A stretch of DNA of 64,000 bases from Wickerhamiella versatilis. Lineage: Eukaryota. The notes under the pieces were generated by a model. It was not told where the DNA came from. It did no database searches and worked only from the letters and a program-made list of their open reading frames with translations. Made by a program: the position numbers and the translations under genes. Where the stretch lies: positions 1 through 64,000 of the forward strand of contig JAQOWU010000007.1 in the NCBI GenBank assembly GCA_030867685.1, written 5' to 3'. Positions 1,760 through 63,492 of this stretch are shown in pieces (the stretch's first letter is position 1; each line of letters begins with the position of its first letter).

Positions 1760-1899
1760 TCTTGCATTGTCCAACCAGTCTCAGGTAGTGAAGTGGGCTA
1801 TCTTGCATTGTCCAACCAGTCTCAGGTAGTGAAGTGGGCTATCTGCATTGTCCAACCAGTCTCAGGTAGTGAAGTGGGCTATCTTGCATTGTCCAACCA
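1760..1899 (+). repeat. Tandem array, ~3.4 copies of 41-bp unit TCTTGCATTGTCCAACCAGTCTCAGGTAGTGAAGTGGGCTA
   Basis: Units start at 1760, 1801, 1842 (1-bp deletion) and 1882; otherwise identical. Confidence 0.97.
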
Positions 1900-3328
1900 T
1901 ATGTGGAATGCAGAGTTGCTTGTCATTACTTCTCAGTTGATGCCCTAGTCCCTATTCTCTACCCATACTGATGAAAGTCAGCTGGATATATTCCATTTTA
2001 GCCTAATTGCTAAAGTCTGAGTTTCTGACCTATTCACAGTGCTCACTGTACCCACACATCATGACAACCAGTGATTCAAGAATACTTTTTTTTAAATCAT
2101 ATATGGGCCCCGCGGGTATCCTCCATCCGACATTGCATAATTTTTATTATTTATGCATAGTATCCTCCATCTGACATTACATAATTATCATGTATGCATA
2201 ATTCATGCAAACGGAACCTGCCCCTTAAACCTTACCCTTTATGAATACCCCCTAAGACTAGCAACATTGGTTCCTTTGGTCAAAAAGAATTCATGTTGGT
2301 GGACATAATTTTTCAAAAAGGGGTTTGCTACAATTCTGAACGGTTTAAAGTAGGTTCTATTCGGCCGACATTCCCCGCATCACTAATCAACACAAGGTGT
2401 GGGGCATGCCCATCATTTCGTTTACGACTATACGATCTATCTCCGACGTTATGGTCTAGGTTGACCCATGTCACTTAGCATAAATTAGTAGCATATACTC
2501 CTAATTTAGCACAGAGTACTGGCTCACTAGATGTAATAGAACCGGAAATTCTGGATGCTAAAAAGAGAAAACTATGTTCCAGGTGCCACGAATGATGAGT
2601 GCAAGAGAGCCTATAGATTAATAGGCCAACCTGCAGCATATTCCTCAAGTTAGACGTCACTTCACGGTGCCTGATTGGCTGACCACTTAGAACCCTAACT
2701 CCACACATAAGGTATTTACCAATATGAACAGCCAGAATAAGCAGTTAGTCACATGAAGAACCTGGTTGTCGACCCTTTGGCGATCGGATGTTCTTGATCG
2801 TTGCGAATGAAAAGCAATCACATAATAATCGTTTCAATCAGAACTGTCATATCTATTAGATAGGATCTAGCCCTCAATAACTCCAATATAGACCTGTTCC
2901 ACTTTGTGACAAGCCCCATCGGAAAAGAAAAATTGATTCAGCATGGGTAGGGGCTCAAAGCCTCTACGTGTCTACGTACGTGCCCCACCTTTTCTTTCGG
3001 GTAATATCTCTGAGAATATATATCGCGGCATCCTCTTCTGTGAAAATCCGGCCTGGAATATCCAACAAGAAGTATTCTTGTATTTAGGAGGGCACTGTGC
3101 TTGCTCCGCGGTGTGGTATGATTTACCCTATAAATAATTATTAAGAATAAAGTACATATGCCAACAGCGCCTCGATATCCTTGTAAAAGTCTAGGTACCA
3201 AAATGTTAATGGAATAATTAAGGAAATATGCAGCTTTGTTTTACCCACAAACTTCCAGTTGTAAAATATTTATGAGAAAAATAGCTCGGCTGGGATTGTG
3301 CATCTCTTTCCGACAGTTAAATATTTCG

Positions 3329-3353
3329 TACCTGAGACTGGTTGGACAATGCA
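3329..3353 (-). repeat. Dispersed 41-bp repeat fragment
   Basis: TACCTGAGACTGGTTGGACAATGCA, exact reverse complement of part of the unit. Confidence 0.93.
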
Positions 3354-3489
3354 TGTAGAGATTTCATGCAATGCATTATTACAAAACATCGGCCACAGCA
3401 ATCTGCAGGACCCCACTGGAATGCGCATCCTAGCCGCATCACATTAAATTCAGACGGTTACCCATCGGTGGGCTACTATTTTGGTAAGA

Positions 3490-5586
3490 ATGAAGGCCTT
3501 CCTAACGCTACAAGCTGTAATTCAGTTAGTAGCATGCCAAGATGCGTCTAGCAGCTCGTACTCGCTAGCGTCGTCGACCATTCAATTCACGAGTCCAACT
3601 AGCTCTGATGTAGTTGCTCCTACTGCTACCTCAAGTTGTCAGTGTGAAAATGAAGGGATTTTTGGCGAAATCATTGATAGCCTGGAGAAAGCGGTAGATG
3701 CTGCGGTTAACGCTTTTAAGTCAGGCATTAATGTGTTCGACCTTCCCGACCACATCAACTCACTTCAATCAGTATTCAATGACCTTGCCGAAATATCCGG
3801 TAACATTGACTGCATCAGTTATAACAGTCAGGCCAAATTCTTGAATGCTATTTCCCAGTTACTGGAAATTGACCATCAACTCTTAGAGGGTCTTAATAGC
3901 TTGGGAGTTGTTCAGGTGATCACTCCACTTTTACCAGGTCTGAATATAATAACCGAAGGAATATCGAGTACCATTATTCAGGTTGGCGGTGGACTCTCGC
4001 GTCATCCCTGCTGTGTGTTGTGGGAGGAGGTAAACGCATCTTCAGATTATATCAACGATGTCAACAAGATTATTGACGGGATCAACGAGATACTGCCGCT
4101 TGCTAAGTTGAAGCACATCTCTGGGTTCCATCTTACGGTATCATCAGGTGACTGCTCTACATCCTCCACTTCCTATATCGGCGCTGGGTCGAGTGCAGGC
4201 CTCTCAACTTTTTCGCAAGTGAGCTCTGGATTTACCAGCATAAAGTCCAATAGTCCACCTACTCCTTCGACGGTTGCATCAGTCCATTCTTCAGAAAGCA
4301 TGACCCTGCCACTTTCGTCTTTGAAGCCACGACCCTCTGCATCCATCAGCAGCAGTATGCAGTCAACTGATGTAGGAGTTTCCACCGCGGACACCTCGAG
4401 TACAGGCTCTGTCAATCACGGTGAGGGGGATGCAACCAAAAGCTTGACTACTGCTGGTACATCTACAACACATTCTTCTGGCAAATTTGGGTCTAGTAAA
4501 GACTCAATTGCCAATAGTGGATCTGTGACTATGAGTTCCTCTAGGAGTAGTGGATCATCTTCTGGATCTGGTACTGGGTCTGGATCGTTGATACCGGGAC
4601 CTTCTACCATTACTACTTCGCGACAAGCCCCAGGCTGGACCTCCAAAGTAAGTCCGTCACTCGCTTCGACCAATACAGTAAATTCAGCATCAGTCAGTTC
4701 TAATCTTGCCACCGATGGGGGGTCGAGTGCTACGGGTGCTTCTACTACTGGTACAGAATCAGGTGCTACGGGAACAATTCCCACTAGTTCAGGTGCGATT
4801 ATTACCGGATCAAGTGGTAGAGGTACTAGTACTCCCGTTAAAGAATCGGGTGTCGCTAGTTCTGGTGCAATTAATACTGATTCAAGTGTATCTGGTGCTA
4901 GCGCTACGGGTACTGGTGCTACAGGTACTGGTAAAGGTGCTAACTCTACCGTAACGGCAGGCACGACCTACTTTACGACATACTGTCCATCGCCAACTAC
5001 CTTCACCTATGGTTCTTCCACTTACACTGTGACAAAAGAAACTACGATGTCTATAGAGGAGTGCGATTGTACCGAGAGTAAGAGTGAGGAAAATAATTCA
5101 GTGATTTTGGGCTCTACAAAGACAGCAGAAGCTACTGTCTTCACCACTTACTGTCCTTCACCCACTACTTTCACCCACGGCTCATCTACGTACACTGTTT
5201 CTGGACCCACATCTTTAACAATTGGACAAAGTACATCCGTAACTCCGACTGCTGCTCCGACTGCTGCTCCGACTGCTGCAACCAGTGTACCAACCGCCAA
5301 AACCAACTCTGCTCCACATGCTGCTGCTTCTGCAAGGCCCTCTGAATCTAATGAATCCGTGCTTCCTGATGTTTCAAGTGTAACTACTGCGGCACCGTCT
5401 CAAACTTACAGTGAGTCTAGTCCTATTGCTGCTTCAAGTAGTGCACCTGCCGCAGTCTCTGAATCTCCTAGTTCTGTTGGCACTGCAACAAGTGCCAGTG
5501 CACCAGCTATTGCAAATACTGCAGAGAAGACGAGTCCGCACAGTGCACTTCTGCTAGGTGTGGCTGCTGGGATTCTGCTACTTTAG
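3490..5586 (+). CDS. GPI-anchored Ser/Thr-rich cell wall protein with Sed1/Spi1-like Cys repeats
   Basis: First ATG at 3490 (MKAFLTLQAVIQLVAC signal peptide); Ser/Thr-rich stalk; two TTYCPSPTTFT.GSSTYTV motifs; hydrophobic C-terminal GPI signal. Confidence 0.88.
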   Translation: MKAFLTLQAVIQLVACQDASSSSYSLASSTIQFTSPTSSDVVAPTATSSCQCENEGIFGEIIDSLEKAVDAAVNAFKSGINVFDLPDHINSLQSVFNDLAEISGNIDCISYNSQAKFLNAISQLLEIDHQLLEGLNSLGVVQVITPLLPGLNIITEGISSTIIQVGGGLSRHPCCVLWEEVNASSDYINDVNKIIDGINEILPLAKLKHISGFHLTVSSGDCSTSSTSYIGAGSSAGLSTFSQVSSGFTSIKSNSPPTPSTVASVHSSESMTLPLSSLKPRPSASISSSMQSTDVGVSTADTSSTGSVNHGEGDATKSLTTAGTSTTHSSGKFGSSKDSIANSGSVTMSSSRSSGSSSGSGTGSGSLIPGPSTITTSRQAPGWTSKVSPSLASTNTVNSASVSSNLATDGGSSATGASTTGTESGATGTIPTSSGAIITGSSGRGTSTPVKESGVASSGAINTDSSVSGASATGTGATGTGKGANSTVTAGTTYFTTYCPSPTTFTYGSSTYTVTKETTMSIEECDCTESKSEENNSVILGSTKTAEATVFTTYCPSPTTFTHGSSTYTVSGPTSLTIGQSTSVTPTAAPTAAPTAATSVPTAKTNSAPHAAASARPSESNESVLPDVSSVTTAAPSQTYSESSPIAASSSAPAAVSESPSSVGTATSASAPAIANTAEKTSPHSALLLGVAAGILLL

Positions 5587-5689
5587 ATTTTTTTTTGTCA
5601 CATGTTTTAATTTTGCTAGCCTCATACCTAAGAAATTTGATATCCTTGGTTTAATAAATTACTTTTTTTTGTTGCTTCTTGGAACACAG

Positions 5690-5864
5690 TCAGGTAGTGG
5701 AGTGGGCTATCTTGCATTGTTATGCTCTACGATGGGGGCTCTATAACACTTCCAATTAACAAAAGGGGGGTGGTATCATATATAACCAACAGTGCAATAA
5801 AAATATTTTTATTATTACAAGCCTTAGGCAGTAAAGCGGGTTATCTTGCATTGTCCAACCAGTC
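5690..5864 (+). repeat. Two dispersed 41-bp repeat fragments (5690-5720; 5826-5864)
   Basis: TCAGGTAGTGGAGTGGGCTATCTTGCATTGT and AGGCAGTAAAGCGGGTTATCTTGCATTGTCCAACCAGTCT. Confidence 0.92.
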
Positions 5865-6115
5865 TTATAGTCTTCTCTCAGTAGCAGTCGCCTATGCGGA
5901 GCATATCGATTCAGGGCATCTCAATGCGAGCTGTTCCTCTGTACTTGTTACAAGGATAGTAATAGCTATCAATGCATATTATTTGTCCACATCCGGGAGA
6001 GCGGGCTATCTGTCCGCTAGCTCCGTGAAGTAAATATGATATATATATCTGGGCTGTGAGCACAGTAGATACCACAAGATTTGATCAAGATACCATGATT
6101 CCTTTCAGTGACATT

Positions 6116-7231: not shown

Positions 7232-7551
7232 TGTGTGTTGCTCCAGATAATGGTTCACCACTCAGTAAGCACAAATACAATGTTAGTCGTGTGATGCTTC
7301 ATCTGATTACGTAATATATTAAGCTCCCAAATGATTTCATGAAAGCCTCCTTGTACGCTTCAAATGATTTTGCACCGAGCTAATTGAATCAGCGTTGTCA
7401 CATAGAGATCTTTACAACTACTAGACTATTATATATTAAACGATATATTCGAGTAATATGGATGTAGGGCATAGTTATACCTCGAAATGGCCTCTAGGTT
7501 CCAATTACTTATGTAGCTTAATTAGCCTATATTCCATCATTGTCTGGTTGG

Positions 7552-7578
7552 AGTGGGCTTTCTTGCATTATCCAACCA
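7552..7578 (+). repeat. Dispersed 41-bp repeat fragment
   Basis: AGTGGGCTTTCTTGCATTATCCAACCA. Confidence 0.88.
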
Positions 7579-10906: not shown

Positions 10907-10943
10907 AAGTGGGCTTTCTTGCGTTGTCCAACCAGTCTCAGGT
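10907..10943 (+). repeat. Dispersed 41-bp repeat fragment
   Basis: AAGTGGGCTTTCTTGCGTTGTCCAACCAGTCTCAGGT. Confidence 0.93.
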
Positions 10944-13069: not shown

Positions 13070-13118
13070 TGGGCTTATCTTGCATTGTCTAACCAGTCTC
13101 AGGTAGTAAAGTGGGCTA
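13070..13118 (+). repeat. Dispersed 41-bp repeat (~1.2 units)
   Basis: TGGGCTTATCTTGCATTGTCTAACCAGTCTCAGGTAGTAAAGTGGGCTA. Confidence 0.94.
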
Positions 13119-15185: not shown

Positions 15186-15231
15186 GCATTGTCCCACCAG
15201 TCTCAGGTAGTGAAGTGGGCTAACTTGCATT
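15186..15231 (+). repeat. Dispersed 41-bp repeat (~1.1 units)
   Basis: GCATTGTCCCACCAGTCTCAGGTAGTGAAGTGGGCTAACTTGCATT. Confidence 0.94.
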
Positions 15232-16792: not shown

Positions 16793-16848
16793 GCATTGTC
16801 CAACCAGTCTCAGGTAGTGAAGTGTGCTATCTTGCATTGTCCAACCAG
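16793..16848 (+). repeat. Dispersed 41-bp repeat (~1.4 units)
   Basis: GCATTGTCCAACCAGTCTCAGGTAGTGAAGTGTGCTATCTTGCATTGTCCAACCAG. Confidence 0.95.
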
Positions 16849-18571: not shown

Positions 18572-18606
18572 AGTAGGCTATCTTGCATTGTCCAACCAGT
18601 CTCAGG
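18572..18606 (+). repeat. Dispersed 41-bp repeat fragment
   Basis: AGTAGGCTATCTTGCATTGTCCAACCAGTCTCAGG. Confidence 0.93.
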
Positions 18607-19814: not shown

Positions 19815-19866
19815 ATTGTCCCACCAGTCTCAGGTAGTAAAGTGGGCTGTCTGGCATTGTCCAACC
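19815..19866 (+). repeat. Dispersed 41-bp repeat (~1.3 units)
   Basis: ATTGTCCCACCAGTCTCAGGTAGTAAAGTGGGCTGTCTGGCATTGTCCAACC. Confidence 0.93.
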
Positions 19867-20156
19867 TGGATAAGGAGGATCTTGGGCAGTATGGCCGCCT
19901 AAAGTAGGCATCTTATTATCGGCCAGGACACGCCGGAAGAAAGCGACTATTCTCCTCTATATTTATGTATGCAGAGATTACAATTCAAGCTATAACGACT
20001 ATATAAAATATTTCCCTAAGAGGAAATGTCCTGCCTGTGTCAAGTACGACGAAAACCCTAAGCCATATCCAAACGTCGACCTTTTTTAGTAATGCTATTT
20101 TTATATGACCTCGTATATATAAAACCTGAAGCTTTGTAAATTATTTCGTTCTATCA

Positions 20157-20513
20157 ATGTTTTCTAAATTTGCGCCATTGTTAACTCTTACTCTTCTACT
20201 ACGAACTGCCATGGGAATACCGACACCAGAGGTGTTTTACGCCACACTAGGTGAGACAAATGATCTGGAGCTCGAAGCCAACCCTACCACCGGTTATTCG
20301 TGGATGATCGAGCAGTTACCCAGCAATCTTATACTGGCCGATCAACGGTATCAAGCAGAGGACAATAACGCTGGCGGATTAGGCAGCGGTGGACACACAG
20401 TATATACATTCATCGGCCAAACTCCAGGTACCGGCGAATTAAAACTTATTTATGGGCGAAGATTCCAAAATTCAACCTGGGAACCCAAGTCAATTAGTGT
20501 CCAGGTGAGTTAA
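20157..20513 (+). CDS. Secreted chagasin-family (MEROPS I42) cysteine protease inhibitor
   Basis: Signal peptide; LEANPTTGYSW, GSGG and YGRRF (cf. Y.RPW) motifs; TATATAAA upstream. Confidence 0.88.
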   Translation: MFSKFAPLLTLTLLLRTAMGIPTPEVFYATLGETNDLELEANPTTGYSWMIEQLPSNLILADQRYQAEDNNAGGLGSGGHTVYTFIGQTPGTGELKLIYGRRFQNSTWEPKSISVQVS

Positions 20514-20738
20514 GCTAATTATGATGTCTACGATTGCCCTAGCCAGCTGACAGATATCGGCACTTCTGCTAGGCTCATATGTACGGTATTCTCATAGCGT
20601 ATGAGTATGAAAGTAATAAATATATCCCCTATAGAGCGTTTTGCCGGGGTCTTGTAAGACATTCATGGCCTCCGCACAATCTGATCTTAACTTTAGACTC
20701 TCTTATCTGGTACCATTTGTCATCGAAGTCCCCGAAGG

Positions 20739-21587
20739 ATGTCATCATTCTCGAACCCGAATTATGATGCAAGTGGATACCAAAAATTTCGTCCAGATTA
20801 TCCACACTCGCTTTATGAACACTTAACCAGTTATATTGGTGAGACCAAGCCAAGTGTGGTGGTCGATGTGGCATGTGGGACAGGCCAAGCTACCAGAGTC
20901 CTTGCACAGATGGCGGACAAGGTATACGGTATTGACAGATCTGAGGTAATGGTAAAACAAGCATGTGACCAGAGAGACTTACCTAGCAACATTGAATTCC
21001 TTGTTGGAGAGGATGCTAAACTGGATCACATGTTTCCACCGCATAGCGTTGATTTACTGACAGTGGCCGAGGCATTTCACTACTTGACTCACCCAGACTT
21101 CCTCAATATAGCACACAAGATTTTGAAACCCAATGGAGTCCTAGCTATTTGGTCCTATTACTTGCCGTCAGTGTTTCAGAAAGATACTGGAACGGAACTG
21201 ACAGAAGCACGACAAGTTATTTACAACCTTACTTATGGCGAGTTAGCTCCATATTGGGATAAGGGGCTGGAGATTATACATGATATGTATGCTTCGTTTA
21301 AGCTCCCACCTAGTCAGTTTACGCAAGAAGTCCGGTATGTAAATGATAATGACCGCCTACGTCCACAGGAGACGTTTGAACTTGTCCGAACAAATGCCAA
21401 GCTCAGTGATCTGATAAATTCATTACGAACTTCGGGACCCTATAACAACTGGAAAAAAGCAAATCCCCAGAGCAGAGATATTCTGGATTTAGCTTATAAA
21501 GAAATTAAGCACAAGGCAGGGCTTGAAGACAATAATTTCATCACAGTGAAATGGAATAGCGTCTACATATTTGCGCGTGCCATTTAA
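20739..21587 (+). CDS. SAM-dependent methyltransferase (Tmt1/Crg1-like)
   Basis: MSSFS..YQKFRPDYP, VDVACGTGQAT, VDLLTVAEAFHY and LKPNGVLAIWSY. Confidence 0.88.
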   Translation: MSSFSNPNYDASGYQKFRPDYPHSLYEHLTSYIGETKPSVVVDVACGTGQATRVLAQMADKVYGIDRSEVMVKQACDQRDLPSNIEFLVGEDAKLDHMFPPHSVDLLTVAEAFHYLTHPDFLNIAHKILKPNGVLAIWSYYLPSVFQKDTGTELTEARQVIYNLTYGELAPYWDKGLEIIHDMYASFKLPPSQFTQEVRYVNDNDRLRPQETFELVRTNAKLSDLINSLRTSGPYNNWKKANPQSRDILDLAYKEIKHKAGLEDNNFITVKWNSVYIFARAI

Positions 21588-21631
21588 TATGTAATATAGT
21601 CAAAGGATTTGTGTGGACTTTGTCTCTTTAA

Positions 21632-22111
21632 GACCTAGTTACACAATGCCCTTCACCCACATCCATTACTACCAACAATGCTACCTATACCGTAACTGGG
21701 CTGACGACAGTAACCATCACCGACTGTCCTTGTACCATTACGAATACCGCTAGCCCACGCAGATCTCAGTCATTCTTTACAACTGAAACGGTGAGTGAGC
21801 TGACCACTTATTGACCCTCCCCAACTACCTTCACGATAAATGAGCGTCCTTATACGGTGACAGAGGCTACAAGCCTTACCATCACTGATTGTCCTTGTAC
21901 CCGGTCAAGAGCAATCACAGGCACAGGCCCATCCAAGGAACCCAATAACTCGTCTATTAGTAGTGTCACGCCTACTACTGCCCACTCATCGAAAGACATT
22001 CCTCATGTGGAGAGTTCAATCAGTACAGCACCTGCTGTAGCTAATACGGGCAGTGGTAAAAAGCCGTGGATAGCATTTGAACTCTTTTTGGTAATTGCTG
22101 CCATACTTTAG
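21632..22111 (+). pseudogene. 5'-truncated Sed1-like GPI cell wall protein pseudogene
   Basis: Reads TQCPSPTSITTNNATYTVTGLTTVTITDCPCT...LTTY*PSPTTFTINERPYTVTEATSLTITDCPCT followed by a GPI tail; in-frame TGA at 21812 replaces Cys; no start or signal peptide. Confidence 0.85.
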
Positions 22112-22377: not shown

Positions 22378-22404
22378 GCTATCTTGCATTGACCAACCAG
22401 CCTC
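22378..22404 (+). repeat. Dispersed 41-bp repeat fragment
   Basis: GCTATCTTGCATTGACCAACCAGCCTC. Confidence 0.87.
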
Positions 22405-23728: not shown

Positions 23729-23754
23729 AGTGGGCTATCTTGCATGGTCCAGCC
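23729..23754 (+). repeat. Dispersed 41-bp repeat fragment
   Basis: AGTGGGCTATCTTGCATGGTCCAGCC. Confidence 0.87.
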
Positions 23755-25944: not shown

Positions 25945-25970
25945 GTGGGCTATCTAGCATTGACCAACCA
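25945..25970 (+). repeat. Dispersed 41-bp repeat fragment
   Basis: GTGGGCTATCTAGCATTGACCAACCA. Confidence 0.88.
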
Positions 25971-32374: not shown

Positions 32375-33406
32375 AATGCAAGATAGCTGAATTCATTCGC
32401 TACAAAACTCTATGAGCACCTAGGAAAAGTACATTTGCTGGGAAGAATGTTTATTATCATGATTTATTTGTCCAGTGATGTATTTTCTATGTTTATAGGT
32501 GACCATTCATAGCAGGTTATTGTGGTGCTACAAATAAACTGTTCAAACAGCAGCACTCTACTGAATTGTCGCTGCGACAATGCCTCCGCACATTATAACA
32601 AATACACACATCTTTATCGTGAATAAATCTCCAATATGCTTACTAAGCTATTACATCATTAACCAGCAGTGTCGTTCTGGCGGATCATGTCGCGAAGGTT
32701 ATCTTTTGGCAGCAGTTCTTAAATTATTGTGCTCATAGTCGATTGATCAGAATATACTGACATCGGAATCTTTAGCATGCAAAAAACTTTTACGGAGCAC
32801 AATACAACCGGAGCCATGAGTGGAGGCAGGCATGTCTGCGACTGCGTTCTGGCTAGTGGTTTTCCGCCGCGGTGGAAAAATGATTGATTGCCTTGCGGAA
32901 GCTTATCGCTATGTTGATATGACAAATCTGTCATCGGTTATTATTCTCGCAGCAAGTGCGTTGATGACGAACCAAGCTCACAAACCTGGTGATCTCATGG
33001 AAAGAATTCTCTGTCGTGGGACTGGAGAGATCCTACAAACTCCGTGATGTTGCTTGGATCTACAAAGTCGTTAGAATTGATTTGAATTAGGTTCTTCCAT
33101 ATGAGCAATTACTTGGTTATAATCAGTATAAGTTGATGGAATTTTTCACCCTCCATAATGGTCGAGCGTAATAAGAGCTCTCCATTATTTATAAGGTATA
33201 TTGCTACAATGCACGTTGTACGCTTCCTTCTTCTTGGTATAAAGACGCGAATCTCTTCTATGGATAACGAGGGTTTGTCACTTAATACGTCTTGCCAAAG
33301 GGTCAAAAAAGGATATGAAAAGCCTTTTAGGCGGTATACTGTTCATGCGAGATCTCAACAGAATAATCTTATGTAGTACTATTCTGGGCTATCTTGCATT
33401 GTACAA
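32375..33406. repeat. Two 41-bp repeat fragments (32375-32387 minus; 33385-33406 plus)
   Basis: AATGCAAGATAGC; TGGGCTATCTTGCATTGTACAA. Confidence 0.8.
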
Positions 33407-33961
33407 GCTGTCCCAGGGAGTGAAGATGTGACACAATTTGGGCCCAAGGGACACCCTTACCACTATATGTATTATGCTATTATAGGATTCGCTATCGATT
33501 CCCTGCGAATTCTGTACAAGGCTATCCACAACGACCCCATGACTTGAAAAACACGTAGTATCATTTTGCCGATATTGAGCCAAAAAAAAGCTATCTGTTG
33601 TTACGGTTTATATTTGTGTTCGCAATATTTCTGGGTATGGGTGTTTGTTACCGGAGCTATCTGCGGTGTTACGTACCCTTAACCTTGACTATGATTTGCC
33701 ATTGTTATCCGATATCGACAATCACTGACCGGTGTTGGTAAACAAAGATGCTGGTTTTGCGGCTCAGAGGATAACCCAACATTTACAACTAGTCTCCGGG
33801 CATGTCGTGCTAATTTCTCACGGGTTGCCACTATAAATGATATCGCGCTAAACTATCTAAAAAGCCGCTACTGGTAAACAAAGAATTAACAATAATAAGG
33901 TTCAGCAACACCAGAAACATATTTCGTATGTATATCGGCTCATATTTCATTGTCCTAGCGG

Positions 33962-38273: not shown

Positions 38274-39629
38274 AAATGCGCAATATAATGTGAAATCAAG
38301 GCAAAAGAGTAATTTATGTTGCACTATCCACCAGTAGTACCTGAGACTGGTTCATTTGCGTAGTCAACCCTGGGTTAGCTCTTCGTCAGAAAGTGTTGGT
38401 TTAGCAGCAAACTGCTGTTCAGATTCAACCAGTCATTCCAATCGTATGATCCTTTACCCTACCGAAGCACCTCTTACTCGTCGGGAAATATTTATTGGAG
38501 CATCCCAGTCAAGAAACTCATCTGTCTTTATTGGTCGACGGATTAAAATTGGCTTAATAGCTGGTTCTTAAGTATGAGCGAGCCATCCTGCAATGAAATC
38601 AGCCACTATAGGCATAACTCGCACGACTAGGCCTACATGAACTTGTCACATCAAACGATTTGCGGAAAGGGGCTTCCATAGTAGACGCATGGAATTATAA
38701 TACCCGCTAATATTTCTTGAGTCAAGCCAGGGTAAACCTACTTATACAACTTTCTTAACCAGTATTAGGCAGCATTAAAGCTTGCCATCTCAGATGGTCG
38801 ACAATGTCGGAGGTTGAAAATTCAGATGCCGGAAAAAAATAGCCTATGGTCTCGCATGGACAAAAGAAAAAGATTCTGATTATTTATATTTTTTTCCCAT
38901 GTATTTTAGATTTTTTTAGCGATGTTATACCCTCACCTCGCTGACAAACACTCACGTGAAATTCTCTTTAACGTGATTCACTACAACCGTTATTAAACAG
39001 TTTAAAATAGAAAATCTATGGGTCTAGTCACTGCTTTACGTGCTACTATGAAATTACCTGGTCCTCAGGCTTCAATTAAGCGCCAATAACAGAGTTCATT
39101 ATTTTCAGTTTAGGACGGAGGGTTATGCATAATTGGGTAATCTATCCGGTAGATAGCACGTCGCATAAATGGTGGGTATTTTCCTGCCATGTAGGTATAA
39201 CTAAGATAAACCATGATCGCACAATACTACTTCCTACTCGAAAACAACCAGAAGTACTCTCCATCTAATCAATGTGTCTTTAGCAGCGTGATGTCGCCTT
39301 CATGGTCCGGCAGCTCAAACATGTCGAAGCACTCAAAAAAGTTGATTTCTAAAATTAAGGATCATTTTTCCTGAATCAGCTACAGTGATAAACGGTAGAA
39401 CTCATTCAGAATGGTATTTTCCTGTATCTTCACCCCCAACGCGAAGTGCCCCATTACGTCTATATAGTAGAACCCACGGACTCATCCCAGGGGGAGGAAG
39501 TGTTGGCCGAGATAGAATTGATAGATGTACCGGGATCTACTTGCAGATAACAGCAAAAAAATGCGCAATATAATGTGACATCAACGTAGACTAAGAGTAA
39601 TTTATCTTGCATTGTCCACCAGTAGTACC
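38274..39629 (+). repeat. Pair of ~70-bp direct repeats (38274-38341; 39559-39629), each containing a 41-bp-unit fragment; first copy abuts an inverted fragment (38338-38352)
   Basis: AAATGCGCAATATAATGTGA.ATCAA...AAGAGTAATTTAT.TTGCA.T.TCCACCAGTAGTACC at both sites. Confidence 0.85.
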
Positions 39630-49881: not shown

Positions 49882-50680
49882 TGGTTGGACAATGCAAGAT
49901 AGCCCACTTGTCAATAACAGCTTATTTATATCATCGGCGTTCTATGCTTAAGATAATAAAACATGAAGTTCAGCCTATACACAAATACAGATCAGCTCAA
50001 CAAAATCTTTATCCGAGATCCCAATAATATTGTCGAATTTTTTGCCCCCTTTAGAGCTTGGTCTGGTCCACTCTTGTAACCCACTAGTCGAGGAAGAAAT
50101 AACCGTTCCGCGAGGCAATGCAAGATAGCCCACTGCTTAAGTGGGCGGACGACCTGTACATTTCTACTTAAATGTTTGTCTTCACTGATATGTTCTTTAG
50201 TAGGCACTTTTACTATGTAAGATTTAATGTATTTTTAATTTGGTATTACAATCAAAATTGATTCATCTAGGGAGTTCGTGATTAAGATTATTGCATATCT
50301 TTAGCGAAGCCGTCTTATTCATGTAATGTAAAGTAGAGAGAGATTTCGCAAGAGAGATATCAGCTACCAGACCTTTAAGCGTGCAATGTTCGAAGGTTCT
50401 AATAGACAGACGGATAGCACACCATACCACCCGAGAAGTGCGTGTAAGAACATAAAGGAAGAGCACTTGTGTAATCTATATGTTATCATCCATCCGTGAT
50501 TTGTCTGCTCAGAGGACTTCTGCGGGCTATCTTGCATTAGTAGGCTAACGGTGTGTTCCAATATCTTCTCTAAGCTAAGGACATAAATGTTTGGTAAGAA
50601 CACGGTGACTCTCATTTCGCTTAATGCATCAAAGAAAATTGGTTTGGGCTTGATTGTATAGTTCAACCGGTCTCAGGTAG
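49882..50680. repeat. Cluster of 41-bp repeat fragments (49882-49909 and 50116-50134 minus; 50524-50538 and 50664-50680 plus)
   Basis: TGGTTGGACAATGCAAGATAGCCCACTT; CAATGCAAGATAGCCCACT; GGGCTATCTTGCATT; CAACCGGTCTCAGGTAG. Confidence 0.88.
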
Positions 50681-52034: not shown

Positions 52035-52210
52035 GGGCTATCTTGCATTGTCCAACCAGACAAGATCTCTACCATAGTACCGGCCCCTTCATCAATCCGG
52101 CTGTTTATAAAAAAGACGATTAAAAAAAGTCGATGAATATCTTGCATTATCCAACCCAAAACTACATAACCATGAGGGGCCGAAATTGGTTGGACGATGC
52201 AAGGTAGCCC
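52035..52210. repeat. Three 41-bp repeat fragments; 52138-52156 (+) and 52187-52210 (-) form an inverted pair
   Basis: GGGCTATCTTGCATTGTCCAACCAG; TATCTTGCATTATCCAACC; TGGTTGGACGATGCAAGGTAGCCC. Confidence 0.88.
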
Positions 52211-55871: not shown

Positions 55872-55901
55872 GACTAGTTGGACAGCGCAAGATAGCCCAC
55901 T
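55872..55901 (-). repeat. Dispersed 41-bp repeat fragment
   Basis: GACTAGTTGGACAGCGCAAGATAGCCCACT. Confidence 0.87.
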
Positions 55902-57960
55902 CTCACTCTAGGCGTATGCTACGAAGGCCGCTGGCCGTCGGTTTGATATTCAATACTTTGATTACATCTATATTCGCTGCCATGTTCCATGGTTACGAGG
56001 AACAAGCTACTCTATCTTCTCAATATCTGGGTTAGAGGCGGATCTGTCCGGAAGTATATGCATGTCTGTATATGCATACATGACCAGAAGTAGTCGAACA
56101 AACTTCTAGCAATGTCACGTGTTAGTGGGCGGACACTGGGCAGGAATGCCATGATGTTGAATATCATTTGACGGCTCGGAACTGAATCCACGGCGAGGAA
56201 GGAATGAACAACTTCCAGCGAAACCTGATCTAGAAGGGCCCATGTTTGGCTTATAGAGAAGTAGGTGGGGCGGACGCGCATCCAAAAAGTGACACTTACA
56301 TCTTCTGGAGCCTAAAGGTAGTTCGCCTAGCCTACTTTTGAGCTGCCTAACATTTCCATCCATTTGACAGACAGACTTACGTTTGATAGACACTAAACGT
56401 GAAGGACGTAGTAGGCATAAGATTAGAAATAAAGGCACTTGCAGGTAAATGTTTTAGTGCATAATGGAGACAGAAGCCATTTAAATAACACTGGGTGTCG
56501 AATATAGAGAGTTAAGCAAAATAGCCCAATCAGCAGTTGGGGCTTTGGCTAATAGCTCTGCAACTAAAGATCGAACTATAAATTGTTAGCTCTATCGAAA
56601 CGAAAGCCTGTCTTACTGCGTACGCCACCAGTGGCCTATCTCACATACGTGTCTGCAGACTTTACGTCATTACATTGGAGGCTCCCTACCTTTTGCCCAT
56701 ATAGTCAGAACTCATTGCATCATGCGCTTTTTTTTTGATTATCGTGATCATCCTCAGTGAATATTATACGTTAACCTCAAGGTTTGCGCTGCTGAGACTA
56801 CTAGGAAAGTAATGGTAGTCGATCAAGAAATATACATATGTAGGGTAAGATATTGCTTATGCTATGCAGAGCACTATTCCGCCAGGACCGGAAAAATTTC
56901 ATGGTCAGAGATCGATCGGTCACGCATTGTGGATGGGACCATGACTTATCATTCTCCAATGGGATATCTTGCATGGCCCTCCTAGTTACAGCTAGTGAAG
57001 TGGGAATGATTGGACCAACTCTCACATCTTTCTGGATACTTATATATTATGTAATCGGGTTAAAAAGCTGCAAACATGGTCTAGAAGCCTGATATCTCGT
57101 AATCAATGACATGGGCATATGCATTACGAAATACCGAAGACACCTTGTGTAATGTGGTAGGGTTTCAGGTCGGGTAGGTACGCTAGGTGTGATTTGTCTC
57201 AGTGATACCCATCAAATCCTCACCATCAAACGCATATATTGCAAATGTAGATCCTCACCGCCATCGGGCGTATGGTGATCGCATCTAGCCGCACATTGGT
57301 ATCTTCTTAAGTGCGGCTTTTCCTGCATTGAACAACCAACCAAATACATGTCGGGGTTCAGAACAGTATACTGTTTCAGGAGATACCTGATATAAACATA
57401 TAGCATACGTATATCAAGAATAGTATGAAAAGTGAGCCGCCCACGTATGTATCAAAGGACAAGGGTTCTTTACTTCGCATTCCGAGCAAACATGAAAGCA
57501 CCAGAATGGCCCACGATTCTGATTGAATGTAAATCCTTGAGATTCGTAATTAGGGTAAATCGTTTATCAAACTTTCCTCATGTGTTATATCATCGAAGAC
57601 GGTCCGATGCCTGGAGGTAATCTTGAGAGCTTCCTTCAGATTATCCCACCAAATTACTTTGGTTTCCCTCACTATGCTTCGCGGGAGAGGAAGACAAAGT
57701 CGCTGTTTTCAGTTTGTTTTGCGGAAATTGGCATAGGTTTGAATGCTTGTAAATTTCTCCTTGTACGATTTTTTACCTAAACACTGAATTCGCGATTGAG
57801 GCTAAATTCGAGGAGCTGTATGTGATCTATAGTCGTAAAATAATAGCCCTGGCTTGAGCGATCAAGAAAAAAAATATCACAACCGTACCGGGAATCCATT
57901 CTGCTGGCTGAATAACCTTGAATTGTAGCCCTACATCAGAGCCTTGCTGTTCCCGGACAA

Positions 57961-57994
57961 AGTGAAGTGGGCTATCTTGCATTGTCCAACCAGT
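57961..57994 (+). repeat. Dispersed 41-bp repeat fragment
   Basis: AGTGAAGTGGGCTATCTTGCATTGTCCAACCAGT, exact match to the unit. Confidence 0.95.
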
Positions 57995-59485
57995 ATCCCG
58001 AAGGGCACTTCGACTGAGCGAATCTTAAAGTAATATTCATAAAGCTAGAGGTCGATGAAAGTTCATCTATTTAATGTAGTTTCACCCTACATAGCACAGG
58101 CAGGAGGAAGTACACAATTGCACCCTCTTTCACAGAATTTTGGAATTATTGAACTCCTAGCAATACGAACTTTTTTGAAAAAGGCGTTATAGGGGGAGCC
58201 GTGCAGTTAAGATAGTATACTCACTTCTCTTAGTTGGTGAGGCAGTGCGGTGAAATAGCGACAAATAGGGCTTGGGTTTTGTGTCTACCAACTTAAAGCC
58301 TATACGCGGCCAGCATTCGCAGAAACCCATATTTAAGGAAAATTATTTGAGAATTGGATGTTTTCCGTTACAACATGTTTCAAATGAAGAACAGTTTTTC
58401 ACTCGATCGCTTCGTTCGGCCTTTGCCTGGTTGCCGAATGCAAGGTGCCCACGGTCTAGATTTTTTCTGACGTTCTATTTTTGGGCTCAAATGCATCCTT
58501 ACCATGCCCTGCATATGCCCTGCATGTGTCTTACCTATGCAGAAGCTCTGAACGATTTGCTGGATGTGGTTTTCAATTTACTAAAAACAATTCCTAGAAG
58601 CTCTCTGTATAGTTCATTTGAAAATATCTACACATCACATCACGGTATATCCCAGATTCTCTAGGTATCCTCCGAGGTTGCAAGCACACACCCTATCAGG
58701 CAGGACTCGAGAATTTAGTAACCTTCCATCTTCTTCACGATGTCAAAGTTAGAACAGCTTGCATAGTATTAACATGACGAAAAGTCTACAGGTTTATATG
58801 ACCAACAGCCATAACCTTTCCTTACAATGTGCCACTTTGTGCTCAAAACACCCACTGGTGACACACCCACGATTTTCATGGCCATGTAGTCTTTACCCTG
58901 ATTTAAGCGTTTCTTCCTTCACTTCATCGTTATGCAGGGAACAACCTCAGTGCCCGTTGCTGGTATTAGGGACAACTAGCGCCTCCCACACTGCCCACAC
59001 CGAATCACCCGCAATTATGGGATTCACGGATGTTATAGCAGGGTCTAAAGATTGGAATTAAGAGGTACTATCTTAAACAATTTCCATTTAGGATGGGGTA
59101 GAATGCAGAACAAAAACTCGCCATTCATAAGAGCGAGTAAAACCTCAGATAAGTCATATCATAGCCAATCATATTTTAATCTATTTCCTTTGCAAAGTGA
59201 ACGAAGGCGTAGTTTTGGGTCTGTCATGGCGGTAATCGCATAATTAAGGTTTGGGGAGGAAAATGGCGAGGTACGATGGGCATGCATGCATTATTGCAAG
59301 TATTGTAGAATATCTAGGAAGCGGCAAAGCTCTTAAATGGATCTTCGAATTTCAACTTTGAAATTATCTGTCCTAAATGGCCTTTATGAAACTCTGACAG
59401 AAGCCGCATTATCATACCTAGTGGCATTGTCCAACAGCGGATATTCTGTAGTATTACTAATTCATGACTGAAATTCGCTCGCGGC

Positions 59486-59514
59486 AAGTGGGCTATCTTG
59501 CATTGTACAACCAG
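59486..59514 (+). repeat. Dispersed 41-bp repeat fragment
   Basis: AAGTGGGCTATCTTGCATTGTACAACCAG. Confidence 0.92.
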
Positions 59515-60960: not shown

Positions 60961-61087
60961 AAGTGGGCTATCTTCCAATGCCTAACCATGAGGGGCTGAG
61001 ATATACACCTCATGTCATTAGTTTGTTTTCCATCCCTACCTAGATACAAATAAATATGAGTGGGCTATCTTGTACTGTACAACCAGT
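60961..61087 (+). repeat. Two 41-bp repeat fragments (60961-60988; 61059-61087)
   Basis: AAGTGGGCTATCTTCCAATGCCTAACCA; AGTGGGCTATCTTGTACTGTACAACCAGT. Confidence 0.85.
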
Positions 61088-61112
61088 TGAAGAAGTGATG
61101 CACTTTTCACCA

Positions 61113-62357
61113 TTAGCTGTTGTGATACTGATTGAATAGTCTCTTCCCCCCTCCAAGGATGGGAAGTAGATCATAAAGTAGACATTCATGGTACTCCAGC
61201 TGAAACTTATCACGGTTCTTCTCACACTGGCACCGGCATCCAACCCCATTCACTCTTACTGAATCAGGAACCATGCCGTCTTCGTTAAGTAAAGTGATTT
61301 GTCTATTTGGTGCGTTTCCAGGACAAAGTCCGAGTGTTGAGTGCGAATATCCAATGTCACGGAAGTAATGTATCTGACTCGCATTCAGCATCATAGCAAC
61401 CGCGAGTGTATGTACGGGTGCATCTCCCCAGCGCTCTCTCCAGAAGCCCCCAGCTTCATCCAAACTCCTGAAATACTCAGCATATAAGGGATTGTCCCAC
61501 AAGTCTACCCGGGCGATCTCAAAATTTGACCAGAAATGGCACATATTGAACACTTCATTCCCCATCGGCTCACTAAATTCTGGATTAGAATCTTTTCTGG
61601 CATCCTGGGTACATAATGCAACCGTCTCCCACAAATCCGTCTCAGGGAGATTCCAAGTTCTCTTGAATGCCTGTGCATACCGAAAAAGACTTTCCACAGT
61701 GTTTCTTCTTTCGCGTATAAATGCATTGAATCCATACCATTTGTCATGACGCTCCATTTCAGTAAAGACATCATAGGTTGTATCACAAAGATATTGAACA
61801 TCCGGTTCAACTCTCCAGTACCACCTATATTTCGAAACGAGCGGATGCTTGAAGAAAAAGCCGCTGAAAAAACGACACATTTGGTGGTAAGACTTCTGGT
61901 CTCCATATTTTACATTGTGTTTAGCTTGATATGCTAGCGCCTCTGTAATCCAACTCTCATCAATCTCTCTGGGAAATTCCCAATGCTCTGCAGGAATGAC
62001 CCCAAATTCGCATTTAGATTCGGTCTCCTGTTGTATGCGATAGATAAACTCCTCTGTAAAAGGCTCATCATTTAGAAAAGTCCACGGGTAATGAAACCAA
62101 TGGTTGAAATGAACTTCCATTGATCTCACACTCTGAATTATCCCTTCAAGATCTGAGTTACGAGACAGGACAAGAAGAGTTGCGTTTGCACGCGGTCCTG
62201 ACACATCGGGCTCGCGGCAGCCCACCACAAAAGGTTCATCCCACTTCCCACCCATGCCCGGATGTCTCCATATCCACAACCTATATGCATAAATTCCACA
62301 AAAAGCTACAGTCATAAACAAGAGCAGTTCCAAACAACTTCGTTTCCGCCATCTCAT
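61113..62357 (-). CDS. GT15 (KRE2/KTR family) alpha-1,2-mannosyltransferase, Ktr5/7-like
   Basis: Type II anchor; YPWTFLNDEPF, SYHQMCRFFSG, YWRVEPD, CHFWSNFEIA and ERWGDAPVH. Confidence 0.94.
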   Translation of the reverse strand: MRWRKRSCLELLLFMTVAFCGIYAYRLWIWRHPGMGGKWDEPFVVGCREPDVSGPRANATLLVLSRNSDLEGIIQSVRSMEVHFNHWFHYPWTFLNDEPFTEEFIYRIQQETESKCEFGVIPAEHWEFPREIDESWITEALAYQAKHNVKYGDQKSYHQMCRFFSGFFFKHPLVSKYRWYWRVEPDVQYLCDTTYDVFTEMERHDKWYGFNAFIRERRNTVESLFRYAQAFKRTWNLPETDLWETVALCTQDARKDSNPEFSEPMGNEVFNMCHFWSNFEIARVDLWDNPLYAEYFRSLDEAGGFWRERWGDAPVHTLAVAMMLNASQIHYFRDIGYSHSTLGLCPGNAPNRQITLLNEDGMVPDSVRVNGVGCRCQCEKNRDKFQLEYHECLLYDLLPILGGGKRLFNQYHNS

Positions 62358-63195
62358 TCGCAAATAGTGTTACTAATCATTGCAAATTCTACCGACTACT
62401 TCTCCAAGCATTTGACACTTTGCCCTCTGAGAAGAAGGCTGAATTCACAATTACGGCAGTTTCTGCTTCATATTCTTGACAGTGATATAAGTTAGATTCT
62501 TCAATAGCCATAGCTGAGTTCCGTGACCTCATTTGTCCTTGAAACAGCCGCTAATCAGGTGCTACATGTAATATATTAAGTTACTGTAAGTGGCGCAACT
62601 TCAACTGCTAAAGTGGAAATGATATCCTTTATACTATTTTTGGTGCTTGGGCATACTAGGCGACAATACTATATACTGCATAGAAAATGCCTTGGCTTTT
62701 AATCCTTTGAATTTAGCGAATTGTCGAATGTCGCAAGCGTGACAGCTCAGAAATTATATTTCCAGTGAAATAGCAAATGATTTGGGGGTGCTTTGTTTGA
62801 TTTCGAAAGCTTATACAGAAACATCAACTTAGTCCTGACGCAATTATGGCTTAAATATTTTCCCTGGCTCGAACACTTCTACAAACATACGTACCCCGGG
62901 GGACGGTAAACCACCCGAGTAGTCATCCACTCACCCTTAGTATGAGGAAAGCGGCAGCGGCAGCGGCAGAGAGTCAAGCGCTGAACCCCCAATCAATTTT
63001 GGCTCAGGTTTTCATGAGAGCGTCTACTTTTCTCACGCGGCTTTGATCGCAGATATGAATTTTATCTTGAAAAGTCGACACAACTATCGTGAAAAGTATA
63101 TGGCCTGCAAATTATTCTTGCGGTAGTGTTAGCGTACCAGTATTTGGAGAAATTTTGCCTCGGTCTGGGGTCGATTAGCGAGAGCAAAAGGGTTC

Positions 63196-63492
63196 GACAA
63201 TGCAAGATATCTCTTAGTAATCCGGCGAGTAAGAATGGTCAGGTAACCTGGGAATAAGAGGAGTTCTTTCTCCGTAATAAATTTTTTTGGCATCAATAAC
63301 AATATCTTATCTTCTTAGTTACCTTTCAGCATTTATACTTACTTGTTTACCAATACCATAATCATATATCACATTCATTGCGTTACCTTCTCCCCCGTGG
63401 TGTCGTAGGTTCCTTGATCCCTCTGCCGCAACCACTATCGAGATTTTGGGCTATCTTGCGACTAAAGTGGCTATCTTGCATTGTCCAGCCAG
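63196..63492. repeat. 41-bp repeat fragments (63196-63209 minus; 63448-63459 and 63465-63492 plus)
   Basis: GACAATGCAAGATA; GGGCTATCTTGC; AAGTGGCTATCTTGCATTGTCCAGCCAG. Confidence 0.85.

What the first reader, a model, noticed from the sequence alone, without database searches (positions are those of the whole stretch)
1899..63492. Repeat fragments end in a shared register on the inward side
Seen: right-hand boundaries of plus-strand copies cluster just after (C)CAACC(A/AG/AGT) at 1899, 7578, 16848, 19866, 23754, 25970, 52059, 57994, 59514, 60988, 61087 and 63492, while left ends vary more. Inference: on the minus strand synthesis would start repeatedly at (AC)TGGTTGGACAATGC. That is the pattern expected for de novo telomere addition from a fixed template register, or for a fixed crossover point, making each fragment a fossil of a former chromosome end.
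Basis: partly seen in the sequence, partly recalled or inferred. Interest (0 to 1): 0.75.

Follow-up and report, generated by a model that had tools for sequence, protein, structure and literature searches.

The report
Two-RNA relay telomerase in yeast
This yeast seems to build its 41-base chromosome-end repeat by alternating between two telomerase RNAs that each carry only half of the template, and short scars of that process scattered between its genes record where each half starts and stops.

Summary
The 41-mer is the telomere repeat of a Wickerhamiella-type yeast (arrays at 4 contig ends). The listed right ends are real (30 of 155 fragments end at unit 17-20; null 10%). 'Left ends vary more' is wrong: 72 of 155 left ends fall at 32-35.

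No intact template of 42 nt or more was found. The one interior candidate is a recent clean insertion, absent in three other runs. Instead, two paralogous telomerase-RNA-like genes on this contig carry perfect half-templates: A (unit 33→18) and B (10/11→37). Both have a pseudoknot, core-enclosing helix and splice-type 3' signals. Neither half can re-prime itself (self-overlap 1 nt), but each primes on the other's product (5 and 8-9 nt), and alternation yields exactly the 41-mer.

Fragments are telomerase scars at breaks: some former ends, some internal insertions. Expression and function are untested, and a third RNA in an assembly gap is not excluded. The scan noted this repeat before in two other windows of this genome, not the two RNAs.

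The parts
1..1140 (.). Noisy inverted copy of about 1140-2300 (fold-back read artefact at the contig end); not analysed
   Evidence: 68-79% inverted matches symmetric about ~1140-1170
1194..1453 (+). Error-rich terminal telomere array of the 41-bp unit; + strand is the template-sense (C) strand
   Evidence: clean arrays of the same unit at C1, C4, C8 ends
1454..1759 (.). 306-bp unique segment distal to the 3.4-unit tract; its last 40 nt match (85%) the outer flank of a fragment at C7:2627200
1760..1899 (+). Internalised 3.4-unit telomere tract (a former end); innermost 27 nt (1873-1899) equal the template of RNA A, inner end at unit 18
3329..3353 (-). Fragment, outer 4 / inner 28 (B then partial A)
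5690..5720 (+). Fragment, outer 22 / inner 11
5817..5865 (+). Fragment, outer 15 / inner 22
7549..7578 (+). Fragment, outer 30 / inner 18 (single pass of A)
10907..10943 (+). Fragment, outer 32 / inner 27 (B then A)
13070..13118 (+). Fragment, outer 35 / inner 41 (A, B, A)
15186..15231 (+). Fragment, outer 5 / inner 9
16793..16848 (+). Fragment, outer 5 / inner 19 (A, B, partial A)
18572..18606 (+). Fragment, outer 33 / inner 26 (B then A)
19815..19866 (+). Fragment, outer 7 / inner 17; the next 7 nt match the 3' flank of RNA A after a 4-nt gap; marks the edge of a duplicated module
19867..21649 (.). 1.8-kb module (chagasin-like I42 inhibitor + methyltransferase) duplicated at C8:4590897-4589112 (89%); homology starts at a fragment in both copies and the DNA beyond differs
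22378..22404 (+). Fragment, outer 38 / inner 23
23729..23754 (+). Fragment, outer 33 / inner 17 (single pass of A)
25945..25970 (+). Fragment, outer 34 / inner 18 (single pass of A)
33385..33425 (+). Fragment, outer 35 / inner 34 (B then A)
39603..39623 (+). Fragment, outer 40 / inner 20
49882..49909 (-). Perfect fragment, outer 32 / inner 18 (single pass of A), opposite orientation
50116..50134 (-). Fragment, outer 33 / inner 10, added where a duplicate of C4:84339-84433 / C5:6843-6722 breaks off
50645..50680 (+). Fragment, outer 35 / inner 29
52035..52059 (+). Fragment, outer 36 / inner 19
52187..52210 (-). Fragment, outer 36 / inner 18
55872..55907 (-). Fragment, outer 28 / inner 21
56960..57004 (+). 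Decayed fragment, outer 35 / inner 38 (full B then A)
57961..57997 (+). Fragment, outer 28 / inner 20-23
59486..59514 (+). Fragment, outer 32 / inner 19 (single pass of A)
60961..60988 (+). Fragment, outer 32 / inner 18 (single pass of A)
61059..61098 (+). Fragment, outer 33 / inner 20 (weak run-on to 32)
63465..63495 (+). Fragment, outer 32 / inner 19-22

Best explanation
The 41-bp telomere repeat is written by one TERT that alternates between two paralogous telomerase RNAs. RNA A has its template at G000:C7:1992145-1992171 (+), unit 33→18, 27 nt. RNA B has its template at C7:1162747-1162774 (-), unit 10/11→37, 27-28 nt. B primes on the 5 nt that A has just finished and adds 22 nt, stopping at 11. 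A primes on the 8 nt that B finished and adds 19 nt, stopping at 33. One A+B cycle gives 41 nt. Neither RNA can translocate on itself. The dispersed 20-60 bp fragments are one to three such passes added at DNA breaks, after which the end was rejoined: to its own partner (clean insertion) or, mostly near chromosome ends, to other DNA. There the fragments also act as crossover points for shuffling gene modules. SHOWN: the repeat is terminal; the registers; the two paralogous loci, their predicted structure and exact complementarity; capture of RNA B flank in fragments; one empty allele; junction association. INFERRED: that the loci are transcribed and used by TERT; strict alternation in vivo; that ends pile up at 33 because the 5-nt hand-off is slower than the 8-nt one; the joining pathway.
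For: (1) The two loci share a 100-nt block (73%, E 5e-7) 69-80 nt 3' of their templates. It is the only homologous pair among 1891 pairs of 62 fragment flanks, apart from one trivial overlap. Two shared motifs have 2 and 3 exact genome hits; the extra hits have no repeat or further homology. (2) Both fold as fungal telomerase RNA: PK1, PK2 with shifted bulge, U-rich and A-rich loops, a PK2.1 hairpin of different sequence, and a core-enclosing helix (cognate duplex -21.9/-19.6, crossed -15.0/-9.0 kcal/mol). Both also have GTAAGT followed by a branch-point motif about 300 nt downstream (chance 0.0015 each) (architecture as in PMC3592445 passages). (3) Self-overlap is 1 and 1 nt, cross-overlap 9 (8 from position 11) and 5 nt, and the relay product equals the unit. 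(4) Templates match the repeat 27/27 and 28/28 while the best-conserved flank block is 73% identical. (5) Fragment ends match the template ends: outer 32-35 in 72 of 155; among 49 outer ends at positions 4-27, position 11 has 8 (p 0.0009; p 0.048 if 10 and 11 are pooled); inner peaks at 17-19 and 37. (6) Fragments at C4:67377 and C4:81967 continue for 10 and 8 nt identical to RNA B's non-telomeric 3' flank (2 of 39 ends), the first for 21 nt with 4 differences. A weaker excess exists for RNA A's flank (12 of 125 vs 4.6%, p 0.014). (7) TERT is intact, 766 aa. (8) Empty allele at C8:309256 in runs X18, X24, X20. (9) Duplication edges lie within 25 nt of a fragment in 28 of 88 cases (9.5 expected), in both copies in 10 (0.27 expected).
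Against: Transcription of A and B was not tested. Rfam does not recognise either locus, and the Ascomycota family search was uninformative. Whole-strand folding z-scores are only -1.4 and -1.9. For A the best duplex partner of the 5' flank in 2 kb was a coding stretch (-24.0); the expected partner came second. In B the 5' flank can pair with template positions 15-20. The structure rests on two sequences; no other species could be examined. Outer ends at 10-12 are few (6 of 155), and that class was first noticed in motif-selected loci. The inner 17-20 cluster did not replicate in the 25-fragment hold-out. In-register microhomology at priming sites was not significant (3 of 9 events >=3 nt vs 14% null). 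The assembly has 8 contigs and indel errors in arrays, so a third RNA could be missing.
Confidence: 0.8

Rival explanations
1. A conventional single telomerase RNA with a template of about 46 nt or more exists but is missing or mis-assembled; A and B are truncated duplicates or helpers, and the registers reflect pause sites in one long template.
For: The assembly is fragmented and has array indels. Three flank motifs from RNA reads of another strain were not found in this assembly. The list of 1-3-mismatch core matches was shown only in part (100 of 230).
Against: All exact hits of three motifs tiling the unit were inspected, and only three perfect non-array copies over 41 nt exist. Two are subtelomeric junction copies and one is a polymorphic insertion. 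Shared pseudoknot motifs find only A and B. Dead duplicates would not both keep perfect templates that overlap exactly into the unit while their helices change in a compensatory way. RNA B flank is fused directly after position 37 in two fragments.
Confidence: 0.1
2. The fragments are collapsed remnants of long telomere arrays or products of recombination with telomeres, not direct telomerase additions at breaks; the registers are inherited from array ends.
For: True for some: the 3.4-unit tract at 1760-1899 and the 12-unit tract at C8:3142-3635 have non-telomeric DNA distal to them. 122 of 153 arm copies face the telomere, and mismatch rate rises with distance from the end, 0.070 to 0.117 (rho 0.16, p 0.044). 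Loci share one flank and differ in the other.
Against: It cannot explain the clean 49-nt insertion with both flanks contiguous in other runs, random orientation in the interior (22 of 40), or RNA flank sequence inside fragments. It does not bear on how the repeat itself is made.
Confidence: 0.15
3. The fragments are selected binding sites for a telomere protein (Tay1-like), and both boundaries mark the footprint.
For: Both ends cluster, giving a 27-29-bp core. A two-Myb TRF-like protein is encoded. Fragments avoid ORFs (2 of 131). The core is slightly better kept (8.6% vs 10.8% mismatches, p 0.02), and G positions differ in rate.
Against: There is no invariant core and the spectrum is transition-rich, like neutral decay. 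Fragments occur in convergent gaps (28 of 50) as often as in divergent ones (25 of 48). The boundaries equal the two template ends. A binding role cannot create 25-50-bp exact copies, although it could help retain them.
Confidence: 0.04

Closest known systems
Fungal telomerase RNAs (Neurospora crassa TER, PMC3592445; Yarrowia-clade TERs, PMC6746865)
   Same: Intergenic gene; template next to a core-enclosing helix; pseudoknot PK1/PK2 with extra helix PK2.1 and U-rich loop; splice-type 3' signals as in deeper-branching yeasts (PMC6115765 passage).
   Different: Two paralogs. Each template is shorter than the repeat (27-28 vs 41 nt) and has no terminal redundancy, whereas known templates are longer than the unit with a 1-10-nt annealing repeat (PMC8211666 passages). 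The predicted RNAs are short (about 400 nt vs about 950 nt in Y. lipolytica). P6.1/TWJ was not resolved.
Telomerase RNA paralogs or alleles with different templates (Mimulus lewisii, PMC10723376 abstract; Zygosaccharomyces sapae, PMC8211666; Candida tropicalis alleles, PMC7857110)
   Same: More than one telomerase RNA with different templates in one cell, both contributing to telomeres.
   Different: There each RNA is described as specifying its own repeat and telomeres are heterogeneous. Here arrays are nearly uniform 41-mers, and each RNA can only follow the other.
Short interstitial telomeric sequences inserted by telomerase at double-strand breaks in mammals, including TERC-ITS (PMC2246262)
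   Same: One-step insertion at an empty site, decay with age, and occasional copying of nucleotides 3' of the template.
   Different: A yeast; at least 155 fragments, about one per two intergenic gaps in the arms (99 of 176). The long unit resolves start and stop to the base. In-register microhomology was not significant here.
Internalised telomere relics with duplicative capture in Pyricularia oryzae (PMC8381367) and ITS-driven rearrangement in S. cerevisiae (PMC11626172 abstract)
   Same: Relics lie in subterminal regions at the edges of segmental duplications; former ends captured DNA from other ends.
   Different: No retrotransposon is involved; relics are mostly under 1.3 units (140 of 155 are 50 nt or shorter) and carry template-defined ends.
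Long yeast telomere repeats (Pichia norvegensis 43 nt, W. domercqiae 30 nt; PMC7857110 supplement)
   Same: Comparable unit length; 41 nt is not a record.
   Different: Those table rows give only the motif; whether they are also built from two half-templates is untested.

Membership tests
Telomere repeat | Tandem arrays at chromosome ends in end-facing orientation | tested here: met
   Arrays at or near 4 contig ends, + on left ends and - on right ends. Published tract lengths for W. versatilis (410, 410, 329, 206, 121) fit a 41-nt unit (PMC13376923 supplement 16).
Telomere repeat | Telomerase dependence | not testable with these tools
   TERT gene intact; needs a knockout.
Fungal telomerase RNA | Template identical to the telomere repeat | tested here: met
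   27/27 and 28/28.
Fungal telomerase RNA | Template longer than one unit with a terminal alignment repeat | tested here: not met
   Self-overlap 1 nt in each; the requirement is met only by the pair. This is the point of novelty, so A and B are not filed as ordinary TERs.
Fungal telomerase RNA | Pseudoknot with U-rich loop 3' of the template | tested here: met
   PK1 5 of 6 pairs, PK2 8 pairs with one bulge, PK2.1 hairpin in both; prediction from two sequences.
Fungal telomerase RNA | Core-enclosing helix / template boundary element | tested here: met
   The helix ends 5-8 nt 5' of each template; cognate pairing beats crossed pairing. For A it was the second-best partner in 2 kb.
Fungal telomerase RNA | Three-way junction with P6.1 | tested here: inconclusive
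   A shared motif sits 199/210 nt past the templates, but the folds of the distal region disagree.
Fungal telomerase RNA | 3' processing signal (Sm site or 5' splice site plus branch point) | tested here: met
   5' splice-site motif at +298/+310 and branch-point motif at +337/+341; no clear Sm site in B.
Fungal telomerase RNA | Match to a curated Rfam telomerase model | tested here: inconclusive
   No match; the control rang nowhere.
Fungal telomerase RNA | Transcribed and bound by TERT | not tested
Telomerase-inserted ITS (mammalian type) | Empty orthologous site | tested here: met
   1 of 1 locus tested: skip of 49 nt in X18 and X24, 53 nt (7 ambiguous) in X20; X14 did not bridge the site.
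Telomerase-inserted ITS (mammalian type) | In-register microhomology at the break | tested here: inconclusive
   3 of 9 distinct events had >=3 nt vs 14% null; 1 nt at the empty-site locus.
Telomerase-inserted ITS (mammalian type) | Capture of RNA sequence beyond the template | tested here: met
   2 of 39 ends with 8-10 identical nt of RNA B flank.
Telomere relics (Pyricularia type) | Association with duplication edges and subterminal, end-facing position | tested here: met
   28 of 88 edges; homology resumed beyond the fragment in 1 of 26 testable edges; 122 of 153 end-facing.
Protein-binding element | Invariant core under selection | tested here: not met
   Per-column mismatch 3-21%, no invariant block.

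The most novel reading that the evidence does not exclude
An obligate two-RNA relay telomerase: each RNA holds a non-redundant half-template, so repeat addition needs a hand-off between two different ribonucleoproteins (or a heterodimer) at every pass. The same non-processive enzyme often acts at ordinary breaks, and its scars serve as joints by which gene modules, including horizontally acquired ones, accrete and shuffle in the large chromosome-end domains of this yeast. Other very long yeast repeats may be composites of the same kind.
Probability: 0.72. Interest if true: 0.95.

Novelty: categorically new. Interest (0 to 1): 0.92.

Why it matters
Telomerase templates are described as longer than the repeat unit, with a terminal repeat for realignment (PMC8211666 passage). 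A pair of half-templates that only work in alternation would be a new catalytic cycle. It offers a route by which yeast repeats reach 40+ nt: duplication of the RNA gene and complementary loss or divergence of template halves. It also gives a natural system in which primer release and re-binding, or telomerase dimers, can be tested with a built-in readout (+22/+19 steps). Separately, more than 150 base-resolved scars give a genomic record of telomerase acting at breaks. They suggest a physical mechanism for the gene-transfer-rich 'end' domains described in this clade (PMC13376923), whose main text has no occurrence of 'telomerase' or 'interstitial'. I found no two-template relay in the library searched. 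That library lacks most subscription papers, and the supplementary PDFs of PMC12449055 and PMC13376923 could not be read.

Tried and rejected
(1) C8:309256-309305 as the telomerase RNA: it is a perfect 50-mer with plausible ends, but it is absent from the same site in X18, X24 and X20, so it is an insertion.
(2) Three flank consensus motifs from X24 RNA reads as RNA candidates: 0 hits each in this assembly; unexplained.
(3) Loose-end counts (15 contigs behind position 1550) were not used as register evidence, because the reference itself stops there.
(4) Loss of repair genes as the cause: two Pif1-family helicases and both Ku subunits are present. XRS2/NEJ1 losses reported for the clade (PMC12629084 passage) were not checked here.
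(5) G/T-rich seeds inward of fragments: no compositional difference (p 0.15).
(6) Linked variants recording an older repeat: best p 0.005 among 135 pairs, not significant.
(7) Read-through past the 5' boundaries into RNA flanks: none.
(8) Metagenome scan: 1 hit, in a contig with bacterial capsule-type ORFs, taken as chance.
(9) Rfam: nothing.
(10) The run search listed no RNA holder for the first candidate.
(11) Protein searches gave only a weak clade lead (W. sorbophila 70%) and an unnamed 73% TERT relative.
(12) My early note of '28 of 29' for non-resumption is corrected to 25 of 26 testable edges; several edges are the same locus in different pairs.
Full report
SETTING. The window is the left end of contig C7 (2.64 Mb) of a 9.88-Mb, 8-contig yeast assembly. 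Contig overlaps give three chromosomes, C4+C3+C1, C7 and C8+C5. The best named yeast hit of one window protein is Wickerhamiella sorbophila (70%). Published telomere tracts of W. versatilis (410, 410, 329, 206, 121 bp) fit a 41-nt unit and its karyotype is similar, so the organism is inferred to be that species or very close. The unit (position 1 = window 1801) forms arrays at or near four contig ends in end-facing orientation. The + strand at this end is the template-sense strand, so right ends are inner (priming side) and left ends outer (stopping side). A 21-nt core has 230 matches with up to 3 mismatches genome-wide, array units included, control 0. TERT is intact, 766 aa.

OBSERVATION. 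The 12 coordinates are as described, but they are 12 of 28 plus-strand copies; 11 of 28 end at unit 17-20 and 13 of 28 start at 32-35. In 446 kb of arms, 130 fragments remained after the exclusions listed under the observation check. Outer ends at 32-35 numbered 58 and inner ends at 17-20 numbered 27, against a simulated null of 9-12% (p 2e-21 and 0.002). A later unselected set gave 14 and 3 of 25; pooled, 72 and 30 of 155.

DISTRIBUTION. Density at score >=36 is 27 in the window, 42 in the last 80 kb of the other arm, 11 in 60 kb at 64-124 kb, 1 in 20 kb at 200 kb and 0 in 60 kb sampled between 300 and 1310 kb. Within 130 kb of an end, 122 of 153 face the telomere. Among motif-selected interior copies, 22 of 40 face the nearer end (Fisher p 0.002). 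Mismatches rise from 0.070 to 0.117 with distance (rho 0.16, p 0.044). Only 2 of 131 lie in long ORFs; 99 of 176 intergenic gaps hold one. Decay is transition-rich with no invariant core.

JUNCTIONS AND AN EMPTY SITE. With fragments masked, 45 duplicated segments were found. Of 88 segment edges, 28 lie within 25 nt of a fragment (9.5 expected) and 10 do so in both copies (0.27 expected). Homology resumed beyond the fragment in 1 of 26 testable edges; 3 of 29 shown were untestable, and some loci recur. In the window, 19867-21649 is such a module. The tract at 1760-1899 is itself internal: 306 bp of unique DNA and the true, noisy terminal array lie distal to it, and positions 1-1140 are a fold-back artefact. 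By contrast, the perfect 50-mer at C8:309256 is a clean insertion. A 15-kb contig of run X18 and 20 reads of X24 skip 49 nt with 1 nt ambiguity, and X20 skips 53 with 7 ambiguous. So fragments are both former ends or junctions and internal insertions.

THE TEMPLATE PROBLEM. A conventional RNA needs a perfect copy longer than 41 nt. I inspected the exact hits of three motifs tiling the unit. Outside arrays only three such copies exist: two subtelomeric junction copies and the polymorphic insertion. Loci picked by the third motif showed a second class, with outer ends at 11-13 in 10 of 13 loci (selected set). In the unselected arms, position 11 holds 8 of the 49 outer ends between 4 and 27 (p 0.0009). 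The classes 33→18 and 11→37 are overlapping halves of the unit.

TWO RNAs. One perfect interior copy of each half sits in an intergenic gap of about 800 bp on C7: A at 1992145-1992171 (+) and B at 1162747-1162774 (-). They share a 100-nt block at nearly the same offset (73%, E 5e-7). That is the only homologous pair among 1891 pairs of 62 fragment flanks, bar one trivial overlap. The block is an H-type pseudoknot with U-rich loop, bulged PK2, A-rich loop and a PK2.1 hairpin whose sequence differs between paralogs. It is followed by a strand that pairs with each template's 5' flank (cognate -21.9 and -19.6, crossed -15.0 and -9.0 kcal/mol). Both loci have a 5' splice-site motif and a branch-point motif about 300-340 nt past the template. 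This is the core architecture described for fungal TERs (PMC3592445; PMC6746865). Shared motifs find no third paralog. Against: Rfam is blank, folding z-scores are modest, the three-way junction is unresolved, and expression was not tested.

THE RELAY. Each template overlaps itself by 1 nt. A's 3' end overlaps B's 5' end by 9 nt (8 from position 11), B's 3' end overlaps A's 5' end by 5 nt, and joining them regenerates the 41-mer exactly. So B adds 22 nt after A, and A adds 19 nt after B (inference). This accounts for all four registers: outer 33 and 11 (5' boundaries), inner 18 and 37 (3' limits). Two fragments on C4 run on into B's non-telomeric 3' flank for 10 and 8 identical nt (2 of 39 ends), which ties locus B to the making of fragments. 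Several copies read G instead of T one base past position 18, which would explain ends at 19-20 if A formerly had that base (inference). Candida telomerases copy one round without repeat-addition processivity in vitro (PMC8096264), so release after each pass is plausible. The excess of stops at 33 over 11 (72 vs 6 of 155) may reflect the shorter 5-nt hand-off (inference). Arrays are regular: apart from boundary units, 4 variant units (small indels) were seen in the four tracts, and no A-A or B-B doubling.

COMPARISON. It works like fungal telomerase plus mammalian-type ITS insertion (PMC2246262) plus Pyricularia-type relic capture (PMC8381367). A and B fail one defining TER feature singly (terminal redundancy; PMC8211666) and meet it only as a pair. 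Known paralog cases give mixed repeats (PMC10723376 abstract; PMC8211666; PMC7857110). Searches found no two-template relay. A 41-nt unit is not a record (43 nt) and is not among the rows I saw.

PAPERS SEEN. PMC13376923: passages, section 9 part 1, supplement search, file 16 whole, file 1 part 1; its supplementary PDF was unreadable and may print the repeat. PMC7857110: passages, table search and part 2 of 3. PMC6746865: passages and section 8. Passages only: PMC2246262, PMC8381367, PMC8096264, PMC3592445, PMC8211666, PMC6115765, PMC12629084, PMC12983215, PMC12449055 (supplement unreadable). Abstract and outline only: PMC10723376, PMC11626172. Gene labels for neighbours of A and B and for ORFs cut by arrays are my recalled readings of the translations, not database hits.

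VERDICT. Observation partly confirmed; interpretation partly supported; the underlying cause is more unusual than proposed. Two-RNA relay 0.8, hidden single RNA 0.1; the origin of individual fragments is mixed. Interest 0.92.

Noticed in passing
G000:C7:2636558-2639608 and G000:C8:91-3141: An identical 3.05-kb segment lies distal to a 50-nt fragment on one chromosome and to a 12-unit array on another, joined at the same base (unit 33); a very recent end capture or an assembly join.
   Followed up: partly
G000:C4:85228 and G000:C8:3635: Telomere arrays start inside ORFs (by my reading a short-chain dehydrogenase and a flavin amine oxidase), i.e. recent healing of broken genes.
   Followed up: no
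G000:C3:83594-83646 and L161:1483-1525: Back-to-back fragment pairs with inner ends touching, as if a tiny piece was extended in both directions.
   Followed up: no
run X24 on L016:1501-1550: 286 reads of an RNA-labelled library contain tandem 41-nt repeats (telomeric transcripts or DNA carry-over); several repeat-bearing read sets have flanks not found in this assembly.
   Followed up: partly
window 11664-37663: Run of small genes of families common in bacteria: nitronate monooxygenase, beta-lactamase-family hydrolase, flavin reductase, I42 inhibitor, GH20, beta-helix protein, GNAT, mostly separated by one fragment each; origin not tested.
   Followed up: no
window 52302-55787 (-): 1161-aa GLEYA/PA14 adhesin with 13.8 copies of a 129-bp repeat.
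   Followed up: no
window 3490-5586 (+): Ser/Thr-rich secreted-type protein without Pfam match; paralogous N-terminal blocks occur three times at C7:2609-2611 kb and near the C8 right end.
   Followed up: no
window 46013-46420: Two-copy 203-bp tandem duplication, 74% identical.
   Followed up: no
L149:694-2097 (G000:C8:2920 kb): Two-Myb protein whose best solved-structure matches are TRF1/TRF2 Myb domains (Tay1-like), although the repeat lacks TTAGGG.
   Followed up: partly
L151:1709-4009 (-) (G000:C7:1744-1746 kb): TERT is short (766 aa) and very divergent: apart from itself, only a 73% relative and a 24% plant TERT passed 1e-20 among 7999 candidates scored.
   Followed up: no
L016:1080-1860: Low, discrete RNA coverage (depth about 12-25 per strand) across the intergenic gap that holds the polymorphic insertion; an unannotated transcript.
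   Followed up: no
PMC7857110 supplement (Pichia norvegensis, 43 nt): Candidate for the same two-half-template test.
   Followed up: no
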